DNA from: a virus
Taxonomy: Duplodnaviria > Heunggongvirae > Uroviricota > Caudoviricetes
IMG/VR virus record: IMGVR_UViG_2541047170_000019
Reading direction: 5' to 3' (one strand)
DNA: 8,583 nt
Position numbers and translations under genes: made by a program. Position 1 is the first letter of the stretch, and every line of letters begins with the position of its first letter. Below are positions 2,003-6,990 of the stretch, piece by piece. Below the pieces are notes generated by a model. It was not told where the DNA came from. It ran no database searches and saw only the letters and a list, made by a program, of their open reading frames with translations.

Positions 2003-2421
2003 TTCTCAATCTCTCGATGGCGCAGTGCAGCAGATGCCAGTTGTTCAAGCTAGCACGCAAATTGTAAACCAGAATGCCAGGAAAAAACAAAACCCGCCGA
2101 AGCTGGTTGTGTGCGGTTGCGTTGAAGTCTCCTAGCCAAAGAGTAGCGGTGACCACTCCCCGCCGATAATCTTAGTTGTTTAATTTCGTAAGCTAACTAG
2201 GCTAAAAGCTCTCTGTTGTCTGCCTGTTGTACAATTAACAAAATGAACAACGAACTAGATATACCAACGCCAGAATGGTGCAACAAATCCCAAACAACAC
2301 AGCAATGCAACAATAACATATGTTATTTTCCTCTCACGGGATTCAGTCCTGAATTCTCATAAAGCTAATCTTTTTTTAAAAACATACTGTTAGATCACAT
2401 GCACTTTCTTTCTTAACATCG

Positions 2422-2449
2422 TTGACTTCGCATGCGAAGCGTTTAAAAT
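2422..2449 (+). promoter_or_regulatory. candidate sigma70-type promoter for the GHKL ATPase operon
   Basis: TTGACT (2422-2427), 16-bp spacer, TAAAAT (2444-2449); A/T-rich upstream region. Predicted start site near 2456, about 45 nt upstream of the ATG at 2502. The spacer contains the perfect palindrome TTCGCATGCGAA (2427-2438). Confidence 0.4.
2427..2438. promoter_or_regulatory. perfect 12-bp palindrome TTCGCATGCGAA inside the promoter spacer; candidate operator or methylation-sensitive site
   Basis: Self-complementary 12-mer read directly from the sequence, overlapping the -35 hexamer and spacer of the candidate promoter. Confidence 0.3.
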
Positions 2450-2501
2450 CAACAATTTGCACTTAAGGTATTTATTTTCCCAAACACATAGAGAGTAAAT
2501 T

Positions 2502-3893
2502 ATGACTGAGAACACGACTCCAACAGCAGACTTTAGTCCTAGTAAAAGATTTTTTGTAAGTATGCTAACTCGAGATATCGACTTAAACGATGCCATACTT
2601 GATCTGCTTGATAACTGCGTCGATGGGGCTTTACGTACAATAAAAGACACAAAAAAAACTTCAAAACCATATGAAGGATTTTATGCGAAACTTACGATTA
2701 ATAAAGATGTCTTTATTATAGAAGACAATTGCGGAGGTATCCCTAAAAGCTTCCGAGAATATGCTTTTAAAATGGGACGACCCCATCAAAAAGAAGAAGA
2801 AAATGAAGGCACCGTTGGCGTCTATGGTATTGGTATGAAAAGAGCCATTTTTAAAATGGGTAGAGATTGCTCAATACAATCGAATAATCCCGATGGCGCA
2901 TTCACTGTAGATATAACACCTGATTGGATCGATGGTGATGGTTGGAAAATACCGATGCACGAGAGTGACTATGATAACAAAAATCCAACAGGCACAACTA
3001 TAGAGATAAAAAAACTCCATTCTAATGTGGCACAAAAATTTAATGAGAGCACATATCTTACTGATCTCTTTTTACAGATAAAACACTCATTGTCATTTAT
3101 TATTCAAAAAGGATTTAAAATAGAATTAAATGGAGTTGTTGTTGAACATAATCCGATTAACATCATAACTGATCATTCTAAAATAGAACCATACATATAT
3201 AAAGCTAAAATAGACGATGTTGATATCGATTTAGTTGTTGGCTTCTATAAAAATTTAGAAGATGACAATGATGATGTTTTAGAAAAAAGGAGTTCTGATG
3301 ATGCTGGATGGACTGTCATTTGCAATGACCGCGTTGTTCTATATTGTGATAAGACACATCTCACAGGTTGGGGCTTTGCTAATGTACCAAGGTTTCATAC
3401 CCAATTTATAGCAATTTCTGGGGTTGTTCGCTTTACCAGTAAAAACCCAGAAAAATTACCAATAACAACAACGAAACGAGGTGTCGATCTTAGTTCTACA
3501 TTGTACAATGATGTACGAAATAAAATGATTGAAGGGATGATGCATTTTATTCGATTCACCAATCAGTGGAAAGGTGAGCATCTTGAAGAAGGGAAAAAAT
3601 TACTTAAGTCAGCTCAGTCACATGAAGCTCAATCTTTATTTGAAATTACCCCACAATCAACTCCAGAAGATAAAAAAAATAACTGGTCCAACCCTAATAG
3701 AAACAAAAATGAGTGGCGATATACACCTAAGCTGCCTACCCCAGTAAAAAAAAGCTCTACTGTACGAATAATCTTCACCAGAGAGAAAGAAGATGTTAAA
3801 ATTTTATCTAAATATTTCTTTGGACATGAAGATGCTAGCGCTTCTGATGTGGGGATGCAATGCTTTGATACGGTGATTGAAGAGGTGAAGTGA
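2502..3893 (+). CDS. GHKL-superfamily (Bergerat-fold) ATPase, MutL/MORC/Hsp90-like N-terminal domain with a C-terminal region of about 290 aa of unknown function
   Basis: 463-aa ORF; GAGAG Shine-Dalgarno 6 nt upstream of the ATG. All four Bergerat motifs appear in canonical order: N-box DLLDNCVDGA (aa 34-43, nt 2601-2630), G1 box IEDNCGGIP (aa 73-81), G2 box GTVGVYGIGMKRAIF (aa 103-117) and G3 box PTGTTIEI (aa 162-169). The N-box has the N...D spacing of MutL/Hsp90/GyrB/MORC-type ATPases rather than histidine kinases. Confidence 0.8.
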   Translation: MTENTTPTADFSPSKRFFVSMLTRDIDLNDAILDLLDNCVDGALRTIKDTKKTSKPYEGFYAKLTINKDVFIIEDNCGGIPKSFREYAFKMGRPHQKEEENEGTVGVYGIGMKRAIFKMGRDCSIQSNNPDGAFTVDITPDWIDGDGWKIPMHESDYDNKNPTGTTIEIKKLHSNVAQKFNESTYLTDLFLQIKHSLSFIIQKGFKIELNGVVVEHNPINIITDHSKIEPYIYKAKIDDVDIDLVVGFYKNLEDDNDDVLEKRSSDDAGWTVICNDRVVLYCDKTHLTGWGFANVPRFHTQFIAISGVVRFTSKNPEKLPITTTKRGVDLSSTLYNDVRNKMIEGMMHFIRFTNQWKGEHLEEGKKLLKSAQSHEAQSLFEITPQSTPEDKKNNWSNPNRNKNEWRYTPKLPTPVKKSSTVRIIFTREKEDVKILSKYFFGHEDASASDVGMQCFDTVIEEVK

Positions 3894-4882
3894 TGTCTGG
3901 ACAATACATTCCCTATCACTTAAGGCATAATAAGTCTATTGATAGAGAGATTTTTCTCGAAAGCCTAAACCTCTTAAGCAAAAGACTAAATATTCAAGAA
4001 TATACATATATAGGTTTTGGTGGTCCGATGCTTGAAGATTTTAGAATCATGCATAATCGTATCGCTCTTTCTGATATGATTTCTCTCGAAGAACAAGAGT
4101 CTACTCACATCAGACAAAAATATAATTTGCCTTATAATTGTATTGATTGTAAGCTAATATCAGCTCATGACTTTATTCTTGATTATAGTTTTTCTAAACC
4201 ATCAATAACATGGTTAGACTATGCCTCCCCGAAAAAAATACAAACGGATCTAGATGATATACACTTACTAAGTACTAAAGTAAGCTCTTTTGATATTTTG
4301 AAGGTCACCTTCCCCATAAATCCTAGTTCTTATTACCAACGTAGAGTTGGAGAAAGTTTAGATATTTTTAAAGAAGCTTTTATTAATTCATTAAAATCAT
4401 TGCTTGGGAAAAAGTATCTTGATTTTAATCTTCAGATATCAAATGCAGATCTTTCAGATCGTAAGATTAAAGCTCTTTTAATACGAATTATTACAAACGC
4501 TTTTAGATCAGCAATAGAACGTGGTCTTTCAGGACGTAAGGATAAGATTCAGTATTACCCATTATCCTTAAATCAATATAATGATGGCAGTCATACCATG
4601 TTGACAATATCAGGTTTTTTCTCCTCAGAACAAGAATATATAGAGTTATCTAAGGCATGCGACCTTTCTAACTGGCAATTTTATTCAACAAATTGGGAAG
4701 ACGTGCAAGAAATAGCAATACCAACACTAACAATTAAAGAAAAGATAAATTTAGATAGTAAACTGCCTGATAAAGAAGCATATCAGGCAGCCGCTGAAGA
4801 GTTCTCTTTAAACGAAAATGAACGGGATAACTATTATAAATACTATAGGTTATACCCTAACTTCCAAAGAATTATGGTTTAA
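3893..4882 (+). CDS. hypothetical protein, translationally coupled partner of the GHKL ATPase; function unknown
   Basis: ATG 3893-3895 overlaps the ATPase TGA stop (3891-3893) as TGATG, with AGAGGTGA 5-8 nt upstream (the track's start at 3890 is a GTG). 330-aa (from ATG 3893; 331 codons from the track GTG 3890) AT-rich ORF. No canonical nuclease, helicase or Toprim motif recognised. The N-terminal YIGFGGP...RIALSD...NLPY is faintly reminiscent of a Rossmann-type SAM-binding motif followed by a degenerate (D/N)PPY (speculative). Confidence 0.75.
   Translation: MSGQYIPYHLRHNKSIDREIFLESLNLLSKRLNIQEYTYIGFGGPMLEDFRIMHNRIALSDMISLEEQESTHIRQKYNLPYNCIDCKLISAHDFILDYSFSKPSITWLDYASPKKIQTDLDDIHLLSTKVSSFDILKVTFPINPSSYYQRRVGESLDIFKEAFINSLKSLLGKKYLDFNLQISNADLSDRKIKALLIRIITNAFRSAIERGLSGRKDKIQYYPLSLNQYNDGSHTMLTISGFFSSEQEYIELSKACDLSNWQFYSTNWEDVQEIAIPTLTIKEKINLDSKLPDKEAYQAAAEEFSLNENERDNYYKYYRLYPNFQRIMV
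4745..4790 (-). terminator. candidate intrinsic terminator for the methyltransferase gene, embedded in the 3' coding region of the convergent partner gene
   Basis: Perfect 10-bp inverted repeat CTGCCTGATA (4763-4772) / TATCAGGCAG (4781-4790) with an 8-nt loop. On the minus strand it is followed by the U-rich run TTTACTATCTAAATTTAT. It lies about 60 nt downstream of the methyltransferase stop at 4850. The plus-strand side is not T-rich. Confidence 0.4.
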
Positions 4883-6001
4883 ATATTCGGGCTGTACTCT
4901 TTTATTTAATAAATTGTACAGCCCCTTTAATATATATTCAGCAACTATTGGTGACACGCTATTTCCTATTTGTCTGAAACTATGCCATTTAGTTACATGA
5001 AAGCGAAACCAATCAGGGAAGCCTTGTAATCTAGCAGCTTCTCTTGGTGTAATCACTCTTGGATGATAAGGGTGGATCGGCCTGACGGCTTGAAAGCTTC
5101 CTTTATCTCTAGCGGTTCCCGCCCTTAAAGTCGGGCAAAAACCATTTGGATCTAATCTTGTAGATCTTGAAATTTTATCAGTTTCCCCAAAAGATAAGGA
5201 AGCATAACGCTCTTGGACGATTTTGCTATGTAATGTTCCGGTACATCCAGATATGATATTATTTTTTAACTTAGCGATCGATTCTGTATCACCAACATTC
5301 CGAGGGATCTGCCCCCATAATTTTTCATAAAATCCCCCTTTTCGATCTTTTTTAATTGTTCGCCAACTCTCAGAGTCTGATTGCCAATTGGCATCGATAA
5401 TATCTGGTAATCCATACAAAGCATCTTTTACAGTAACCGGATCAATCATTTTAGGCATAAATACTTCATCTGAAATATCAAGCTTCAATGATTTTTTTAC
5501 ACCGATAAAAAAATATCTAGTTCGAATAGTTGGAGCACCATAATCAGATGCTTTTACCTTGATGGGATCAAGAATATCATAATCACCGCTAACCAAATTA
5601 AATGCTTTATTTCTAATGCCAGAATATTTCTCTTGCATAATACCTGGAACATTTTCTGCCAAAAAGAATAATGGCTGTAATTCTGATACTAAACGGTAGA
5701 AATGCATGTAAAGCTGATTCCTGCTATCATCAGGATTCCCCTTGCCTATTGAACTAAATCCTTGGCACGGAGGACCGCCAATAATACCATCTATGGGCAT
5801 ATCGTTTTTAAAAAAACCCTTAATTATTTCTGCATTTAGTAAAGAAACATCTTCTTGGACGTGCAAACTTCTTGGAAAATTAATTGCGTGAGTATTAATA
5901 GCATGTTGATCAATTTCAACTGCCATTTTAACATCAAATCCAGCACGTGCAGCACCAAGACTTAGACCTCCAACGCCAGAAAACAAATCTATTACATTCA
6001 T
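4850..6001 (-). CDS. DNA (cytosine-5)-methyltransferase
   Basis: 383 aa with canonical C5-methyltransferase motifs in order: motif I DLFSGVGGLSLG (aa 5-16), motif IV GGPPCQGFS with catalytic Cys79, motif VI FLAENVPG, motif VIII RTRYFFIG, motif X IGNSVSPIVAEYI. Target-recognition region between VIII and X is about 190 aa. Specificity cannot be read from the sequence. Confidence 0.9.
   Translation of the reverse strand: MNVIDLFSGVGGLSLGAARAGFDVKMAVEIDQHAINTHAINFPRSLHVQEDVSLLNAEIIKGFFKNDMPIDGIIGGPPCQGFSSIGKGNPDDSRNQLYMHFYRLVSELQPLFFLAENVPGIMQEKYSGIRNKAFNLVSGDYDILDPIKVKASDYGAPTIRTRYFFIGVKKSLKLDISDEVFMPKMIDPVTVKDALYGLPDIIDANWQSDSESWRTIKKDRKGGFYEKLWGQIPRNVGDTESIAKLKNNIISGCTGTLHSKIVQERYASLSFGETDKISRSTRLDPNGFCPTLRAGTARDKGSFQAVRPIHPYHPRVITPREAARLQGFPDWFRFHVTKWHSFRQIGNSVSPIVAEYILKGLYNLLNKRVQPEYLNHNSLEVRV
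4889..4924 (+). terminator. stem-loop downstream of the partner gene stop; candidate terminator for the ATPase operon, lying inside the methyltransferase C-terminal codons
   Basis: 9-bp inverted repeat GGGCTGTAC (4889-4897) / GTACAGCCC (4916-4924) with an 18-nt A/T-rich loop, followed on the plus strand by CTTTAATATATATTC. It starts 7 nt after the partner gene stop (4880-4882). The large loop and interrupted T-tract make it a weak terminator call. Confidence 0.3.
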
Positions 6002-6033
6002 ATAGTTGCAACGTCTCTTATTAGTTTCTATGT

Positions 6034-6063
6034 ATTATAACACAACTGTTCTTGATGTTTTAA
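6034..6063 (-). promoter_or_regulatory. candidate extended -10 promoter for the methyltransferase gene
   Basis: Minus strand reads TGTTATAAT (perfect TATAAT at 6039..6034 with TGn extension) with a weak -35 TTAAAA at 6063..6058 (18-bp spacer). Predicted start site near 6027, about 25 nt upstream of the ATG at 6001. Confidence 0.4.
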
Positions 6064-6173
6064 CCCCATAAGATAACCTCATAAAGGCTATCCCTTGAAA
6101 ATACCGGATCGCATAAATTTAATCTTTCAAAACTACTTGTCTATTAATCGAGCAATTTAAGGTTGTTTTAGTC

Positions 6174-6189
6174 ATGTCGATACCGACAT
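6174..6189. repeat. 16-bp palindromic element ATGTCG-ATAC-CGACAT in the noncoding region upstream of the methyltransferase
   Basis: Perfect 6-bp inverted arms with a 4-bp spacer read directly from the sequence; a second inverted repeat CCCATTT(n12)AAATGGG lies at 6201-6226. Confidence 0.3.
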
Positions 6190-6263
6190 AGTTAACTAAA
6201 CCCATTTCATCGTCCAACAAATGGGGGTAATACACTTTGATTTATAGTCGGGTGGGTTTTTCT

Positions 6264-6299
6264 CTATCTGCCTTTGGTGTTCATGCCCAAGGCAGATAG
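6264..6299. repeat. perfect 11-bp inverted repeat at the right edge of the AT-rich island
   Basis: CTATCTGCCTT (6264-6274) and AAGGCAGATAG (6289-6299) with a 14-nt spacer. Not flanked by a T-tract on the correct side in either orientation, so not a canonical terminator. It sits at the composition transition. Confidence 0.35.
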
Positions 6300-6352
6300 C
6301 CTCAAGCACCCGCAGCAATTCTACTTAACTATCCTTTTCCCGCAAATCGTTT

Positions 6353-6436
6353 TTATCCCCAGCGGCAAATCGAATACACAACCAGCGCCACCGCCATCGC
6401 AATTCCTACCGTTGTGAATGCTTCAGGCCAGGTCAT
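6353..6436 (-). CDS. small hydrophobic peptide (27 aa, single predicted transmembrane helix), translationally coupled to the DUF551 gene
   Basis: Absent from the ORF track because of its size. ATG 6436..6434 overlaps the upstream TGA (6435..6433) as ATGA, with AGGAGGT (plus 6443-6449) 6 nt upstream. Translation: MTWPEAFTTVGIAMAVALVVYSICRWG, stop TAA 6355..6353. Confidence 0.45.
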   Translation of the reverse strand: MTWPEAFTTVGIAMAVALVVYSICRWG

Positions 6437-6990
6437 TGATTCACCTCCTGCGGCGGTTCTGGTAGCGACATCCAGTGGGTTGCTTGCCTAAGATCATTAC
6501 CCGGACTAACTGCTATACCTCCGCGCCGGAACGTGCCTCCGAGATAGCGTGCGGAATATATTAATGGCCCAGCCTCGCTATCGATATTCATCGAAATAAG
6601 CACGTTCTGGCTCTTTTCAGGCATTCGCTCAGTACAGCTTATCCAGCCATCCAGAGTTATCGGAGATCTGGTTGACGTTTCCGAGATTTCCCGAAAATTG
6701 TTGGTTGACGAATTCTTATTTTCCCGAAAGTTTCCGGCCTGAAGCATGGCGACGCGGCAGGCGTTCCAGCCATCAGCATATGTTTTAGTTACACCGTCGA
6801 GATGGCAGGTAAGCAAATCCATTTCATCAGGCACTACCATTGCTATCGGCTCTGCTTCCAGTGATGCCAGCGCGATACGAAACACATTAGCCAGCAGGCT
6901 GTCTGAAGACTTGTTATCGTGCGCCGAGTCGCTCAGGAAGCCTGTGATGTATGATTTAATCTCCGCGCGTTCTCTGGTAATAGTGCTCAT
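6433..6990 (-). CDS. DUF551-domain protein (lambdoid prophage early/nin region)
   Basis: 185-aa ORF. The C-terminal segment DGWISCTERMPE...VLISMN...THWMSLPEPP matches the W...LP...hWMPLPepP signature I recall for DUF551. AAGGA Shine-Dalgarno about 9 nt upstream of the ATG at 6990. Confidence 0.7.
   Translation of the reverse strand: MSTITRERAEIKSYITGFLSDSAHDNKSSDSLLANVFRIALASLEAEPIAMVVPDEMDLLTCHLDGVTKTYADGWNACRVAMLQAGNFRENKNSSTNNFREISETSTRSPITLDGWISCTERMPEKSQNVLISMNIDSEAGPLIYSARYLGGTFRRGGIAVSPGNDLRQATHWMSLPEPPQEVNQ

What the first reader, a model, noticed from the sequence alone, without database searches (positions are those of the whole stretch)
4763..4924. Convergent gene pair with overlapping 3' ends and interdigitated terminator-like hairpins
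The partner gene (stop at 4882) and the methyltransferase (stop at 4850) overlap by 33 bp at their 3' ends. Each candidate terminator hairpin lies inside the other gene's coding sequence: 4763-4790 inside the partner gene, 4889-4924 inside the methyltransferase. Convergent transcripts would overlap by about 160 nt, allowing transcriptional interference or antisense pairing to balance restriction-side and modification-side expression, as known for some convergent restriction-modification systems.
Basis: partly seen in the sequence, partly recalled or inferred. Interest (0 to 1): 0.5.

Follow-up and report, generated by a model that had tools for sequence, protein, structure and literature searches.

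The report
Embedded 3'-end hairpins at overlapping genes
Two convergent prophage genes in E. coli overlap by 33 bases, and each hides inside its coding end a conserved RNA hairpin that most likely marks the end of the other gene's transcript; this is a compact variant of ordinary transcript-end signals, not a new kind of regulation.

Summary
The + strand gene (stop at 4882) and the C5 DNA methyltransferase gene (stop at 4850) overlap by 33 bp. Inverted repeats lie exactly at 4763-4790 (H1) and 4889-4924 (H2).

Across 12 orthologous loci (partner protein 54-100% identical), H1 and H2 are the only conserved strong folds in 3.25 kb (z about -7.5). Both stems are kept by compensatory changes: 88.9% of cells paired against 22-42% in slid controls.

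G.U wobbles and folding energies show each hairpin is tuned to one strand. H2 works in the + transcript, 7 nt after the partner gene's stop. H1 works in the - transcript, 59 nt after the methylase stop.

Close relatives without the overlap lack H1 and have one intergenic bidirectional terminator instead. A second clade (40-50 bp overlap) evolved its own embedded hairpins.

U-tracts are weak and not conserved, so these are not textbook intrinsic terminators.

Its "restriction side" label is unsupported: the partner is a Rossmann methyltransferase-fold protein co-transcribed with a MORC/Hsp90-like GHKL ATPase, and no nuclease was found.

Verdict: a real, functional, compact variant of a known kind.

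The parts
2422..2449 (+). Promoter-like site for the GHKL-OMT operon: TTGACT, 16-nt spacer, TAAAAT. The spacer holds a CTTC-N6-GAAG inverted repeat.
   Evidence: Best + strand hit of the consensus scan, 10 of 12. TTGAC and TAAAAT/TATTAT are conserved upstream of the GHKL gene in the closer relatives: window, L064, L066, L067, L068, L086. Function is inferred.
2502..3893 (+). GHKL ATPase gene, 463 aa (paraMORC/Hsp90-like GHKL plus transducer module).
   Evidence: PF13589, E 2.9e-9. Model pLDDT 82, best folds TRAP1/Hsp90, SMCHD1, MORC2. Directly upstream of the OMT gene on the same strand in almost every locus long enough to show it, and in all 62 genome-contig loci.
3893..4882 (+). Partner gene, 329 aa (PF20553 Methyltransf_35, 'putative O-methyltransferase'). 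Its ATG overlaps the GHKL stop codon by 1 nt. H1 lies in its codons 291-300. Its last 10 codons plus stop are the overlap.
   Evidence: PF20553, E 2e-89, full length. Model pLDDT 88 with a class I Rossmann methyltransferase fold. The C-terminal NYxKYYRLYPNFQRIMV is conserved.
4763..4790 (-). Hairpin H1: CTGCCTGATA / TATCAGGCAG, 10 bp, loop 8. Proposed 3'-end hairpin of the methyltransferase (- strand) transcript, 59 nt after its stop, embedded in the OMT coding sequence.
   Evidence: -18.7 kcal/mol, z -4.62. Present in 14 of 14 overlap-type relatives at about 50 nt after the DCM stop, -16.5 to -20.8 kcal/mol. Four pairs have changes on both sides. More stable on the - strand in 12 of 14 loci. 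Absent in non-overlapping relatives L072, L073, L074, L138.
4850..4882 (.). 33-bp coding overlap, codon-aligned. The DCM stop TAA is the antisense of OMT Leu320 codon TTA.
   Evidence: The same 33-bp overlap occurs in every clade-1 locus of this type, down to 54% OMT identity. It results from a 16-18 codon C-terminal extension of the methylase.
4889..4924 (+). Hairpin H2: GGGCTGTAC / GTACAGCCC plus 3 inner pairs. Proposed 3'-end hairpin of the GHKL-OMT (+ strand) transcript, 7 nt after the OMT stop, embedded in codons 360-371 of the methyltransferase tail.
   Evidence: -17.2 kcal/mol, z -4.96. Present in 14 of 14 relatives at 0-4 nt after the stop, -17 to -27 kcal/mol. Seven of 10 pairs have changes on both sides. 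16 G.U against 1 A.C on the + strand. More stable on the + strand in 13 of 14 loci.
4850..6001 (-). C5 DNA cytosine methyltransferase gene, 383 aa. The last ~17 residues are a non-conserved extension running through H2 into the OMT 3' end.
   Evidence: PF00145, E 2.6e-61. PDB 3G7U is this protein, residues 1-366. The tail from the GNSV motif to the stop is 38-39 aa here, against 20-27 aa in most orthologues that do not overlap.
6034..6063 (-). Promoter-like site for the methyltransferase: TTAAAA, 18-nt spacer, extended -10 TGtTATAAT, 33 nt upstream of the ATG.
   Evidence: 10 of 12, with TG. The extended -10 (TGnTAnAaT) is conserved in 11 of 12 clade-1 upstream regions although the surrounding sequence does not align. 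Function is inferred.

Best explanation
H1 and H2 are two strand-specific RNA hairpins that define and protect the 3' ends of two convergent transcription units.

How it works:
- The GHKL-OMT mRNA (+ strand, probably from the promoter-like site at 2422-2449) ends at H2, just after the OMT stop.
- The methyltransferase mRNA (- strand, from the conserved extended -10 at about 6034-6044) ends at H1, about 60 nt after its stop.
- The genes are packed so tightly that each hairpin has to sit inside the other gene's 3' coding sequence. On that other strand it is translated through and is a weaker fold.

Likely origin: a single intergenic bidirectional terminator, as still seen in relatives L074 and L073. 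The methylase ORF became extended by 16-18 codons through that hairpin into the OMT 3' end. The old hairpin stayed as the + strand element (H2). A new - strand hairpin (H1) arose in the first loosely constrained stretch of OMT downstream of the new stop.

Shown: the hairpins, their conservation by compensatory change, their strand specificity, and their link to the overlap.

Inferred: that they stop or pause RNA polymerase and/or block 3' exonucleases. Because U-tracts are weak, termination is probably hairpin-dependent pausing helped by head-on polymerase collision, not classical intrinsic termination.
For: - Coordinates and energies.
- Only two conserved folds in 3.25 kb across 12 orthologous loci, z about -7.5, each stronger on its proposed strand.
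- Covariation in clade 1: 88.9% of cells paired against 22-42% when the partner is slid; 11 pairs with changes on both sides against 3-7; score 0.350 against at most 0.124; 0 of 500 shuffles reach it.
- Wobble asymmetry: H2 has 16 G.U against 1 A.C on the + strand. H1 has 11 A.C (G.U on the - strand) against 7 G.U.
- Energies: H1 is stronger on the - strand in 12 of 14 loci and H2 on the + strand in 13 of 14, by means of 3.7 and 4.4 kcal/mol.
- Position: H2 starts 0-4 nt after the OMT stop and H1 about 50 nt after the DCM stop in all 14 non-redundant clade-1 loci.
- Independent clade 2 (OMT about 33% identical, overlap 40 or 50 bp) has its own + strand hairpin 23-27 nt after the OMT stop. It is built from the methylase motif X codons, is 96.6% paired, and has 4 pairs changed on both sides.
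- Control: relatives without the overlap lack any H1-type fold (-3 to -9.5 kcal/mol). L074 and L073 carry one palindromic terminator in the 28-nt or 58-nt gap.
- The methylase tail is an extension, and the crystallised construct lacks it.
- Separate conserved promoter elements for both units.
- E. coli is reported to have bidirectional terminators between convergent genes that do not resemble intrinsic terminators, where the hairpin acts as a pause that positions head-on collisions (bioRxiv 10.1101/2022.10.23.513370).
Against: - No 3'-end mapping was available, so termination itself is not shown.
- T tails are weak and not conserved: 0.03-3.5 for H2 on the + strand and 0.7-2.9 for H1 on the - strand, against 3.2-3.4 for a canonical terminator. 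The consensus scanner called neither hairpin.
- H1 strand asymmetry in wobbles is modest (11 against 7).
- The sequences in the alignments are related, so shuffle statistics overstate independence. I count roughly 11-12 independent G.U events for H2.
- More distant tight convergent loci (L006, L017, L030, L031) show no outstanding hairpins, so the arrangement is not universal in the family.
Confidence: 0.65

Rival explanations
1. The hairpins do not terminate transcription. They only act as 3' exonuclease barriers that stabilise mRNAs whose synthesis ends elsewhere, by Rho, by polymerase collision at variable sites, or by run-off into the partner gene followed by trimming.
For: Weak, non-conserved U-tracts and no call by the terminator scanner. 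The stems are nevertheless strongly conserved, as expected for protective stem-loops. Strand specificity fits this reading equally well.
Against: The non-overlapping relatives carry what look like true terminators at the homologous place. In L074 this is an A-tract, stem and U-tract, which suggests continuity of function. Hairpins without U-tracts are reported to position termination at convergent junctions. The two readings are not mutually exclusive.
Confidence: 0.2
2. The roughly 170-nt 3' sense-antisense overlap is itself the selected feature. Transcriptional interference or RNase III cleavage of the duplex couples and balances expression of the GHKL-OMT pair and the methylase. In a prophage, anti-terminated read-through from phage promoters may also silence GHKL-OMT while boosting the methylase.
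For: - The overlap length is fixed (33 bp) across clade 1 down to 54% identity.
- Overlaps arose independently in clade 2.
- In 9 of 9 lambdoid prophage contexts the methylase is co-directional with the flanking phage genes and GHKL-OMT is antisense to them.
- Both units have their own promoter-like elements.
Against: - No expression data.
- The fixed 33 bp follows simply from a conserved Leu codon (TTA/CTA) in a conserved OMT motif.
- In 23 of 62 species genomes the three genes form one co-directional operon, and in 7 the methylase lies downstream on the same strand. Antisense coupling is therefore not needed for the system to work.
- The hairpins limit the antisense overlap; they do not extend it.
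Confidence: 0.1
3. The palindromes act at the DNA level (protein-binding or recombination site, cruciform), or are chance or coding by-products.
For: They are perfect DNA palindromes in the window. GTAC lies at the core of H2.
Against: - Stem sequences change freely while pairing is kept, which argues against a sequence-specific binding site.
- G.U pairs that would be A.C mismatches on the other strand, and in duplex-derived cruciforms, are 16 to 1 for H2.
- 0 of 200 shuffles fold as well.
- These are the only conserved folds in 3.25 kb.
- Protein constraints cannot explain H2, because the methylase tail is variable.
Confidence: 0.03

Closest known systems
Bidirectional terminators between convergent E. 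coli genes (Ju et al. 2019, as described in bioRxiv 10.1101/2022.10.23.513370)
   Same: Both sit at a convergent gene junction. Both have hairpins without canonical U-tracts. Both give overlapping 3' ends of the two transcripts. The hairpin is proposed to act as a pause that positions head-on polymerase collision.
   Different: Here there are two separate hairpins about 100 nt apart, each tuned to one strand (G.U asymmetry). Each lies inside the coding sequence of the opposing gene, and the coding sequences themselves overlap by 33 bp. The described elements are single and intergenic.
Classical Rho-independent (intrinsic) terminators, including the bidirectional A-tract, stem and U-tract type seen in relative L074
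   Same: A stable G+C-containing stem-loop shortly after a stop codon. Relatives L074 and L073 have such an element at the homologous junction.
   Different: The U-tract is weak and not conserved. H2 has an 18-nt outer loop. The elements are intragenic with respect to the other strand.
Antisense-RNA regulation of restriction-modification systems (EcoRI, Eco29kI; PMC3141266, PMC12707154)
   Same: Opposite-strand transcription within a methylase-containing gene module could lower expression of the non-methylase partner.
   Different: Those systems use reverse promoters inside tandem R-M genes, and the antisense RNA covers the 5' part or the Shine-Dalgarno of the R gene. Here any antisense pairing would involve only 3' ends, and no restriction nuclease is identified.
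paraMORC/MORC GHKL ATPases linked to DNA cytosine methylases in predicted R-M-like operons (Iyer, Abhiman and Aravind 2008, PMC2292703)
   Same: A GHKL plus transducer ATPase genetically linked to a Dcm-type methylase, patchily distributed across phyla and on mobile elements.
   Different: The invariant partner here is a Rossmann methyltransferase-fold protein (PF20553), not a helicase or nuclease. I could not assign this GHKL to one of the named paraMORC1-5 families.

Membership tests
Rho-independent intrinsic terminator | Stable stem-loop in the nascent RNA just downstream of the stop codon | tested here: met
   H2 is 7 nt after the OMT stop at -17.2 kcal/mol. H1 is 59 nt after the DCM stop at -18.7 kcal/mol. 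Both z below -4.6. Conserved by covariation.
Rho-independent intrinsic terminator | Run of U residues immediately 3' of the stem | tested here: not met
   4 of the first 8 nt are T after H2 (+ strand) and 5 of 8 after H1 (- strand) in the window. T-tail scores are 1.77 and 2.90, against 3.2-3.4 for the canonical L074 terminator. Relatives range from 0.03 to 3.5. Not called by the scanner.
Rho-independent intrinsic terminator | RNA 3' ends map to the element | not testable with these tools
   No 3'-end data could be read here.
Collision-type bidirectional terminator of convergent genes | Lies between a convergent gene pair and encodes a hairpin that does not resemble an intrinsic terminator | tested here: met
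   Convergent pair. Hairpins with weak U-tracts. Definition taken.
Collision-type bidirectional terminator of convergent genes | One shared element serves both directions | tested here: not met
   Two elements with opposite strand preference. A single shared palindrome is seen only in relatives L073 and L074.
Collision-type bidirectional terminator of convergent genes | Termination depends on convergent transcription, not on Rho | not testable with these tools
   Needs in vitro or in vivo transcription assays.
Type II restriction-modification system | DNA methyltransferase | tested here: met
   PF00145 E 2.6e-61, TIGR00675, PADLOC MTase_II E 2e-98. PDB 3G7U.
Type II restriction-modification system | Cognate restriction endonuclease gene | tested here: not met
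   Neither + strand protein matches a nuclease family in Pfam, NCBIfam or PADLOC. The folds are a Rossmann methyltransferase and a GHKL plus transducer module. A cryptic nuclease site cannot be excluded.
paraMORC/MORC-associated R-M-like systems (Iyer 2008) | GHKL ATPase with a C-terminal S5/transducer domain | tested here: met
   PF13589. The model aligns over about 400-440 columns with TRAP1/Hsp90, SMCHD1 and MORC2 ATPase modules.
paraMORC/MORC-associated R-M-like systems (Iyer 2008) | Conserved linkage to a DNA methylase | tested here: met
   A Dcm homologue lies within 5 kb in 49 of 62 species genomes, in four different arrangements.
paraMORC/MORC-associated R-M-like systems (Iyer 2008) | Associated nuclease and/or superfamily II helicase | tested here: not met
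   Not present in the island, which holds three genes. Some relatives carry a second, longer GHKL protein (608 aa) next to the methylase.
Antisense-regulated R-M (EcoRI/Eco29kI type) | Reverse promoters inside the regulated gene producing antisense RNA | tested here: inconclusive
   - strand promoter-like hits inside OMT (4607-4561, 4442-4413) score only 9 of 12, and the total number of hits equals that of shuffles (22 against 21.1).

The most novel reading that the evidence does not exclude
The interdigitated pair is a split bidirectional terminator that forces a fixed 3' sense-antisense overlap of about 170 nt between the methylase mRNA and the GHKL-OMT mRNA, and the overlap serves as a switch.
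- In the lysogen each unit is insulated by its own hairpin.
- On prophage induction, anti-terminated phage transcription reads through H1. It is always co-directional with the methylase in 9 of 9 lambdoid contexts.
- That read-through runs antisense across OMT and GHKL, shutting off the effector pair while over-expressing the methylase.
This would be a transcription-polarity control of a still uncharacterised, very widespread GHKL / methyltransferase-fold / Dcm module.
Probability: 0.12. Interest if true: 0.65.

Novelty: new variant of a known kind. Interest (0 to 1): 0.4.

Why it matters
- It is a clean natural case in which RNA structure and two overlapping reading frames share the same 160 bases. 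The RNA constraint visibly wins over protein sequence in the methylase tail, and in clade 2 it appears to shape the residues after methylase motif X.
- It gives a plausible evolutionary path from one intergenic bidirectional terminator to two embedded, strand-specific ones.
- It warns annotators that terminator finders restricted to intergenic space and strong U-tracts miss such elements.
- It draws attention to a three-gene module that is absent from PADLOC: a GHKL ATPase, a PF20553 methyltransferase-fold protein and a Dcm-type methylase. The module occurs in 173 of 5,426 complete E. coli genomes, mainly O157:H7 and O111, and across many phyla.
- Knowing its transcript architecture is a precondition for cloning and testing it.

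Tried and rejected
- The consensus terminator scan called neither hairpin. That reflects its loop and T-run rules, not absence of structure.
- The Rfam scan found no known RNA family at the junction.
- PADLOC and NCBIfam have nothing for the GHKL or OMT proteins. PDB sequence searches were empty for OMT and GHKL.
- Literature searches for PF20553 and for the three RefSeq protein accessions returned nothing. A search for GHKL, cytosine methyltransferase and O-methyltransferase as a defence system gave only an unrelated jumbo-phage paper.
- The first hairpin scan timed out and was rerun with sparser background sampling.
- My ORF extension gave a false -26 overlap for L074. The gene caller, the tail translation and the sequence itself show a 28-nt gap.
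- All 173 E. coli copies are at least 99% identical, so they were useless for covariation. Relatives from other genera and metagenomes were needed.
- I tried to reach Term-seq evidence for EHEC. Only GEO deposits exist, and they are not readable here.
- A DNA-level palindrome function was rejected on wobble asymmetry. Chance was rejected on shuffles and conservation.
- The - strand hairpin at 5100-5143 (-18.6 kcal/mol in the window) is not conserved (mean about -9.8) and was dropped.
Full report
**Where the window comes from.** It is the nin region of a lambdoid (Rac/CP-933R-like) prophage of E. coli. Positions 2200-6300 are 100% identical to E. coli O157:H7 PA20 and many other O157:H7 and O111 chromosomes. 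172 of 5,426 complete genomes carry the whole island. A low-GC island (0.31-0.37, against 0.46-0.52 in the flanks) holds three genes:
- 2502-3893 (+), 463 aa
- 3893-4882 (+), 329 aa
- 4850-6001 (-), 383 aa

All flanking phage genes are on the - strand.

**Check of the observation.** The two convergent ORFs overlap by 33 bp, 4850-4882. As RNA, H2 on the + strand folds at -17.2 kcal/mol (z -4.96). H1 on the - strand folds at -18.7 kcal/mol (z -4.62). None of 200 dinucleotide shuffles does as well. Within the island they are the two strongest + strand 44-nt folds, and H1 is the strongest - strand fold. The simple terminator scanner did not call them.

**What the genes are.**
- The - strand gene is a C5 DNA cytosine methyltransferase (PF00145, TIGR00675). 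PDB 3G7U is this very protein, residues 1-366 plus a tag.
- The 'partner' is not a recognisable restriction enzyme. It is a full-length PF20553 (Methyltransf_35, 'putative O-methyltransferase', E 2e-89). A confident model (pLDDT 88) has a class I Rossmann methyltransferase fold.
- Its start overlaps the stop of the upstream GHKL ATPase (PF13589). That protein's model (pLDDT 82) resembles the GHKL plus transducer modules of TRAP1/Hsp90, SMCHD1 and MORC2.
- PADLOC has no model for either protein.
- The GHKL family is very large: more than 5,400 clusters at E below 1e-20.
- The module recalls the paraMORC-methylase neighbourhoods of Iyer et al. 2008 (PMC2292703), but it has neither a nuclease nor a helicase.

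**Comparative anatomy of the module.** In 62 species genomes from many phyla, including one archaeon, GHKL and OMT are always adjacent on one strand. The methylase position varies:

| Methylase position | Loci |
|---|---|
| Upstream, same strand (one operon) | 23 |
| Downstream, convergent | 19 |
| Downstream, same strand | 7 |
| Divergent | 1 |
| None within 5 kb | 12 |

Thirteen of the convergent loci are tight, with gaps or overlaps from +86 to -50 bp.

Closer relatives were fetched from assemblies, viral contigs and metagenomes. They fall into two enterobacterial, mostly phage-borne clades.
- Clade 1 (OMT 54-100% identical to the window) keeps exactly the 33-bp overlap in every locus of this arrangement.
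- Clade 2 (OMT about 33% identical, methylase about 62-66%) overlaps by 50 or 40 bp.

**Conservation of the hairpins.**
- In all 14 non-redundant clade-1 loci, a + strand hairpin starts 0-4 nt after the OMT stop (-17 to -27 kcal/mol). A - strand hairpin lies about 50 nt after the methylase stop (-16.5 to -20.8 kcal/mol). Each is in the top 0-0.3% of windows of its own locus.
- Averaged over 12 orthologous loci and 3.25 kb, these are the only two conserved folds. H2 averages -19.3 on the + strand and -14.9 on the - strand. H1 averages -18.1 on the - strand and -14.4 on the + strand. The next best position is -10.5 or weaker (z about -7.5).
- On the junction alignment, the two stems are 88.9% paired, against 22-42% when the partner is slid by 1-3 columns. 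Eleven pairs have changes on both sides (slid controls 3-7). The covariation score is 0.350 (at most 0.124 when slid). No shuffle out of 500 reaches these values.
- Examples for H2: GGGCTGTAC/GTACAGCCC (window), CGGTTGTGCA/TGTACAACCG (L066), AAGTTGCGCG/CGCGCAACTT (L067).
- Clade 2 has its own + strand hairpin 23-27 nt after the OMT stop, GGTAATAGC...GCTATTACC. It is made from the methylase's GNS (motif X) codons pairing with the MLLP codons 10 residues later. It is 96.6% paired, with variants GGTAACAGC/GCTGTTACC and GGCAATAGC/GCTATTGCC.

**Which strand matters.** A G.U pair in one RNA is an A.C mismatch in the complementary RNA.
- H2 shows 16 G.U cells against 1 A.C cell when read on the + strand. 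By my count this is about 11-12 independent events.
- H1 shows 11 A.C cells (G.U on the - strand) against 7 G.U cells.
- H2 is more stable on the + strand in 13 of 14 loci, by a mean of 4.4 kcal/mol. H1 is more stable on the - strand in 12 of 14 loci, by a mean of 3.7 kcal/mol.

So each hairpin is selected in the transcript whose stop codon precedes it.

**Link to the overlap, and likely origin.**
- From the GNSV motif to the stop, the methylase has 20-27 residues in most orthologues that do not overlap (21-22 in L073, L074 and L108). It has 38-39 in clade 1 and 35-38 in clade 2.
- The overlap is therefore a 16-18 codon C-terminal extension that runs through H2 into the conserved OMT end. The stop TAA/TAG is the antisense of OMT Leu320 TTA/CTA.
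- The extension is variable in sequence, and the crystallised construct lacks it.
- Relatives without the overlap (L072, L073, L074, L138) have no H1-type fold at the homologous OMT codons (-3 to -9.5 kcal/mol).
- L074 has a textbook bidirectional terminator (AAAAGCTCTCA-ACTG-AGAGCTTTT) filling its 28-nt gap. L073 has a 13-bp palindrome in its 58-nt gap.
- In an OMT tree, L074 branches outside the rest of clade 1, and L108 (gap 0) branches outside the 40/50-bp overlap loci of clade 2. The overlaps therefore arose at least twice, each time with embedded hairpins.
- The simplest history is as follows. An intergenic bidirectional terminator was over-run by the methylase reading frame. It survived as the + strand element. 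A new - strand hairpin evolved in the first weakly constrained part of OMT downstream of the new stop.

**Are they terminators?** In the functional orientation the tails are somewhat T-rich. Window scores are 1.77 (H2, + strand) and 2.90 (H1, - strand), against 0.48 and 0.13 in the opposite orientation and about 1.0 for background. They fall short of a canonical terminator (3.2-3.4 in L074) and vary from 0.03 to 3.5 among relatives. The conserved element is thus the stem, not the U-tract. That fits two known behaviours:
- hairpin elements at convergent E. coli gene pairs that do not look like intrinsic terminators and act as pauses positioning head-on polymerase collisions;
- 3' stem-loops that block exonucleases.

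I cannot separate these without 3'-end data.

Both transcription units have their own promoter-like elements. TTGACT-16-TAAAAT lies at 2422-2449. A conserved extended -10 (TGtTATAAT) lies 33 nt upstream of the methylase ATG.

**The regulatory idea.** Whether this is used for antisense or interference control is untested.
- Against a necessary role: in 23 of 62 species genomes the three genes form a single co-directional operon, and in 7 more the methylase lies downstream on the same strand.
- One pattern is suggestive. In 9 of 9 lambdoid contexts (the window plus L064/65, L066, L067, L069, L071, L073, L139) the methylase points the same way as the phage's early/late genes, and GHKL-OMT points against them.
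- The R-M antisense regulation described in the review I read works through reverse promoters in tandem genes (PMC12707154), not through 3' overlap.

**Verdict.**
- The structural half of the interpretation (each hairpin is the other gene's 3'-end signal) is well supported.
- The 'terminator' label needs the qualifier 'non-canonical'.
- The expression-balancing mechanism and the restriction-modification framing remain conjecture.
- This is a compact variant of a known kind of element, sitting in an uncharacterised and widespread three-gene module that is the more intriguing object.

Noticed in passing
window 6187-6311 (- strand): Rfam match to the sok antitoxin RNA family RF01794: full model 1-157, 50.2 bits against a gathering score of 59, E 4e-9. 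It lies at the methylase-proximal edge of the low-GC island. The strongest hairpin of the whole window (13-bp stem, 6263-6300) lies inside it. No Hok-like ORF was obvious.
   Followed up: partly
window 2502-6001 and loci L002-L139: The GHKL ATPase, PF20553 methyltransferase-fold protein and Dcm methylase form a conserved module across many bacterial phyla and one archaeon. More than 5,400 GHKL homologue clusters exist. PADLOC 2.0 has no model for the first two proteins. It looks like an undescribed defence-like or epigenetic system without a recognisable nuclease.
   Followed up: partly
L072 5208-8195, L138 4274-6990; also L007, L010, L013, L014, L018, L027, L057: In several relatives the methylase is paired with a second, longer GHKL protein (608 aa, PF13589, weak PADLOC hit to PD-Lambda-5_A) lying between it and GHKL-OMT. 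L007 has a second inverted GHKL-OMT-like pair on the other side of the methylase.
   Followed up: partly
window 4850-4903 (methylase residues 367-383): PDB entry 3G7U is this methyltransferase, identical over residues 1-366 and then a tag. The crystallised construct therefore lacks exactly the C-terminal extension that overlaps H2 and the OMT 3' end.
   Followed up: yes
window 2427-2443: A CTTC-N6-GAAG inverted repeat (cTTCgcatgcGAAg) sits in the spacer between the -35 and -10 of the GHKL promoter-like site. The CTTC/GAAG arms recur in L064 and partly in L066, L067 and L086. It may be an operator.
   Followed up: no
L089-L123, L011, L016, L019, L020 (clade 2), about 23-70 nt after the OMT stop: In clade 2 the + strand hairpin is built from the methylase's own motif X codons (GGT AAT AGC = GNS) pairing with the codons for MLLP ten residues later. 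Non-overlapping orthologues have HILRV or YILKG at that place. RNA structure thus appears to have shaped the protein sequence right after a catalytic-domain motif.
   Followed up: partly
L071 and L139 against the window, L067 and L073: The same three-gene island sits at different places in lambdoid prophages. It lies in the nin region upstream of Q in the window, L067 and L073, and between Q and the lysis genes (the position stx genes occupy in Stx phages) in L071 and L139. The methylase is always co-directional with the phage genes.
   Followed up: partly
window 6353-6436 (- strand): A 27-codon ORF encodes a hydrophobic peptide (MTWPEAFTTVGIAMAVALVVYSICRWG). It lies directly downstream of, and overlaps by 4 nt the end of, the 185-aa phage ORF at 6433-6990.
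   Followed up: no
E. coli O157:H7 F6294, NZ_CP038372.1 2823822-2824283: One of 173 E. coli genomes matches only the first 462 nt of the 3800-5200 query, so its island is truncated or interrupted inside the OMT gene.
   Followed up: no
literature, PMC2907692: An EDL933 RpoS transcriptome lists Z2389, 'Prophage CP-933R protein', among genes up 9-fold in an rpoS mutant. From memory Z2389 is this methyltransferase, but I could not verify the locus tag with the tools.
   Followed up: no
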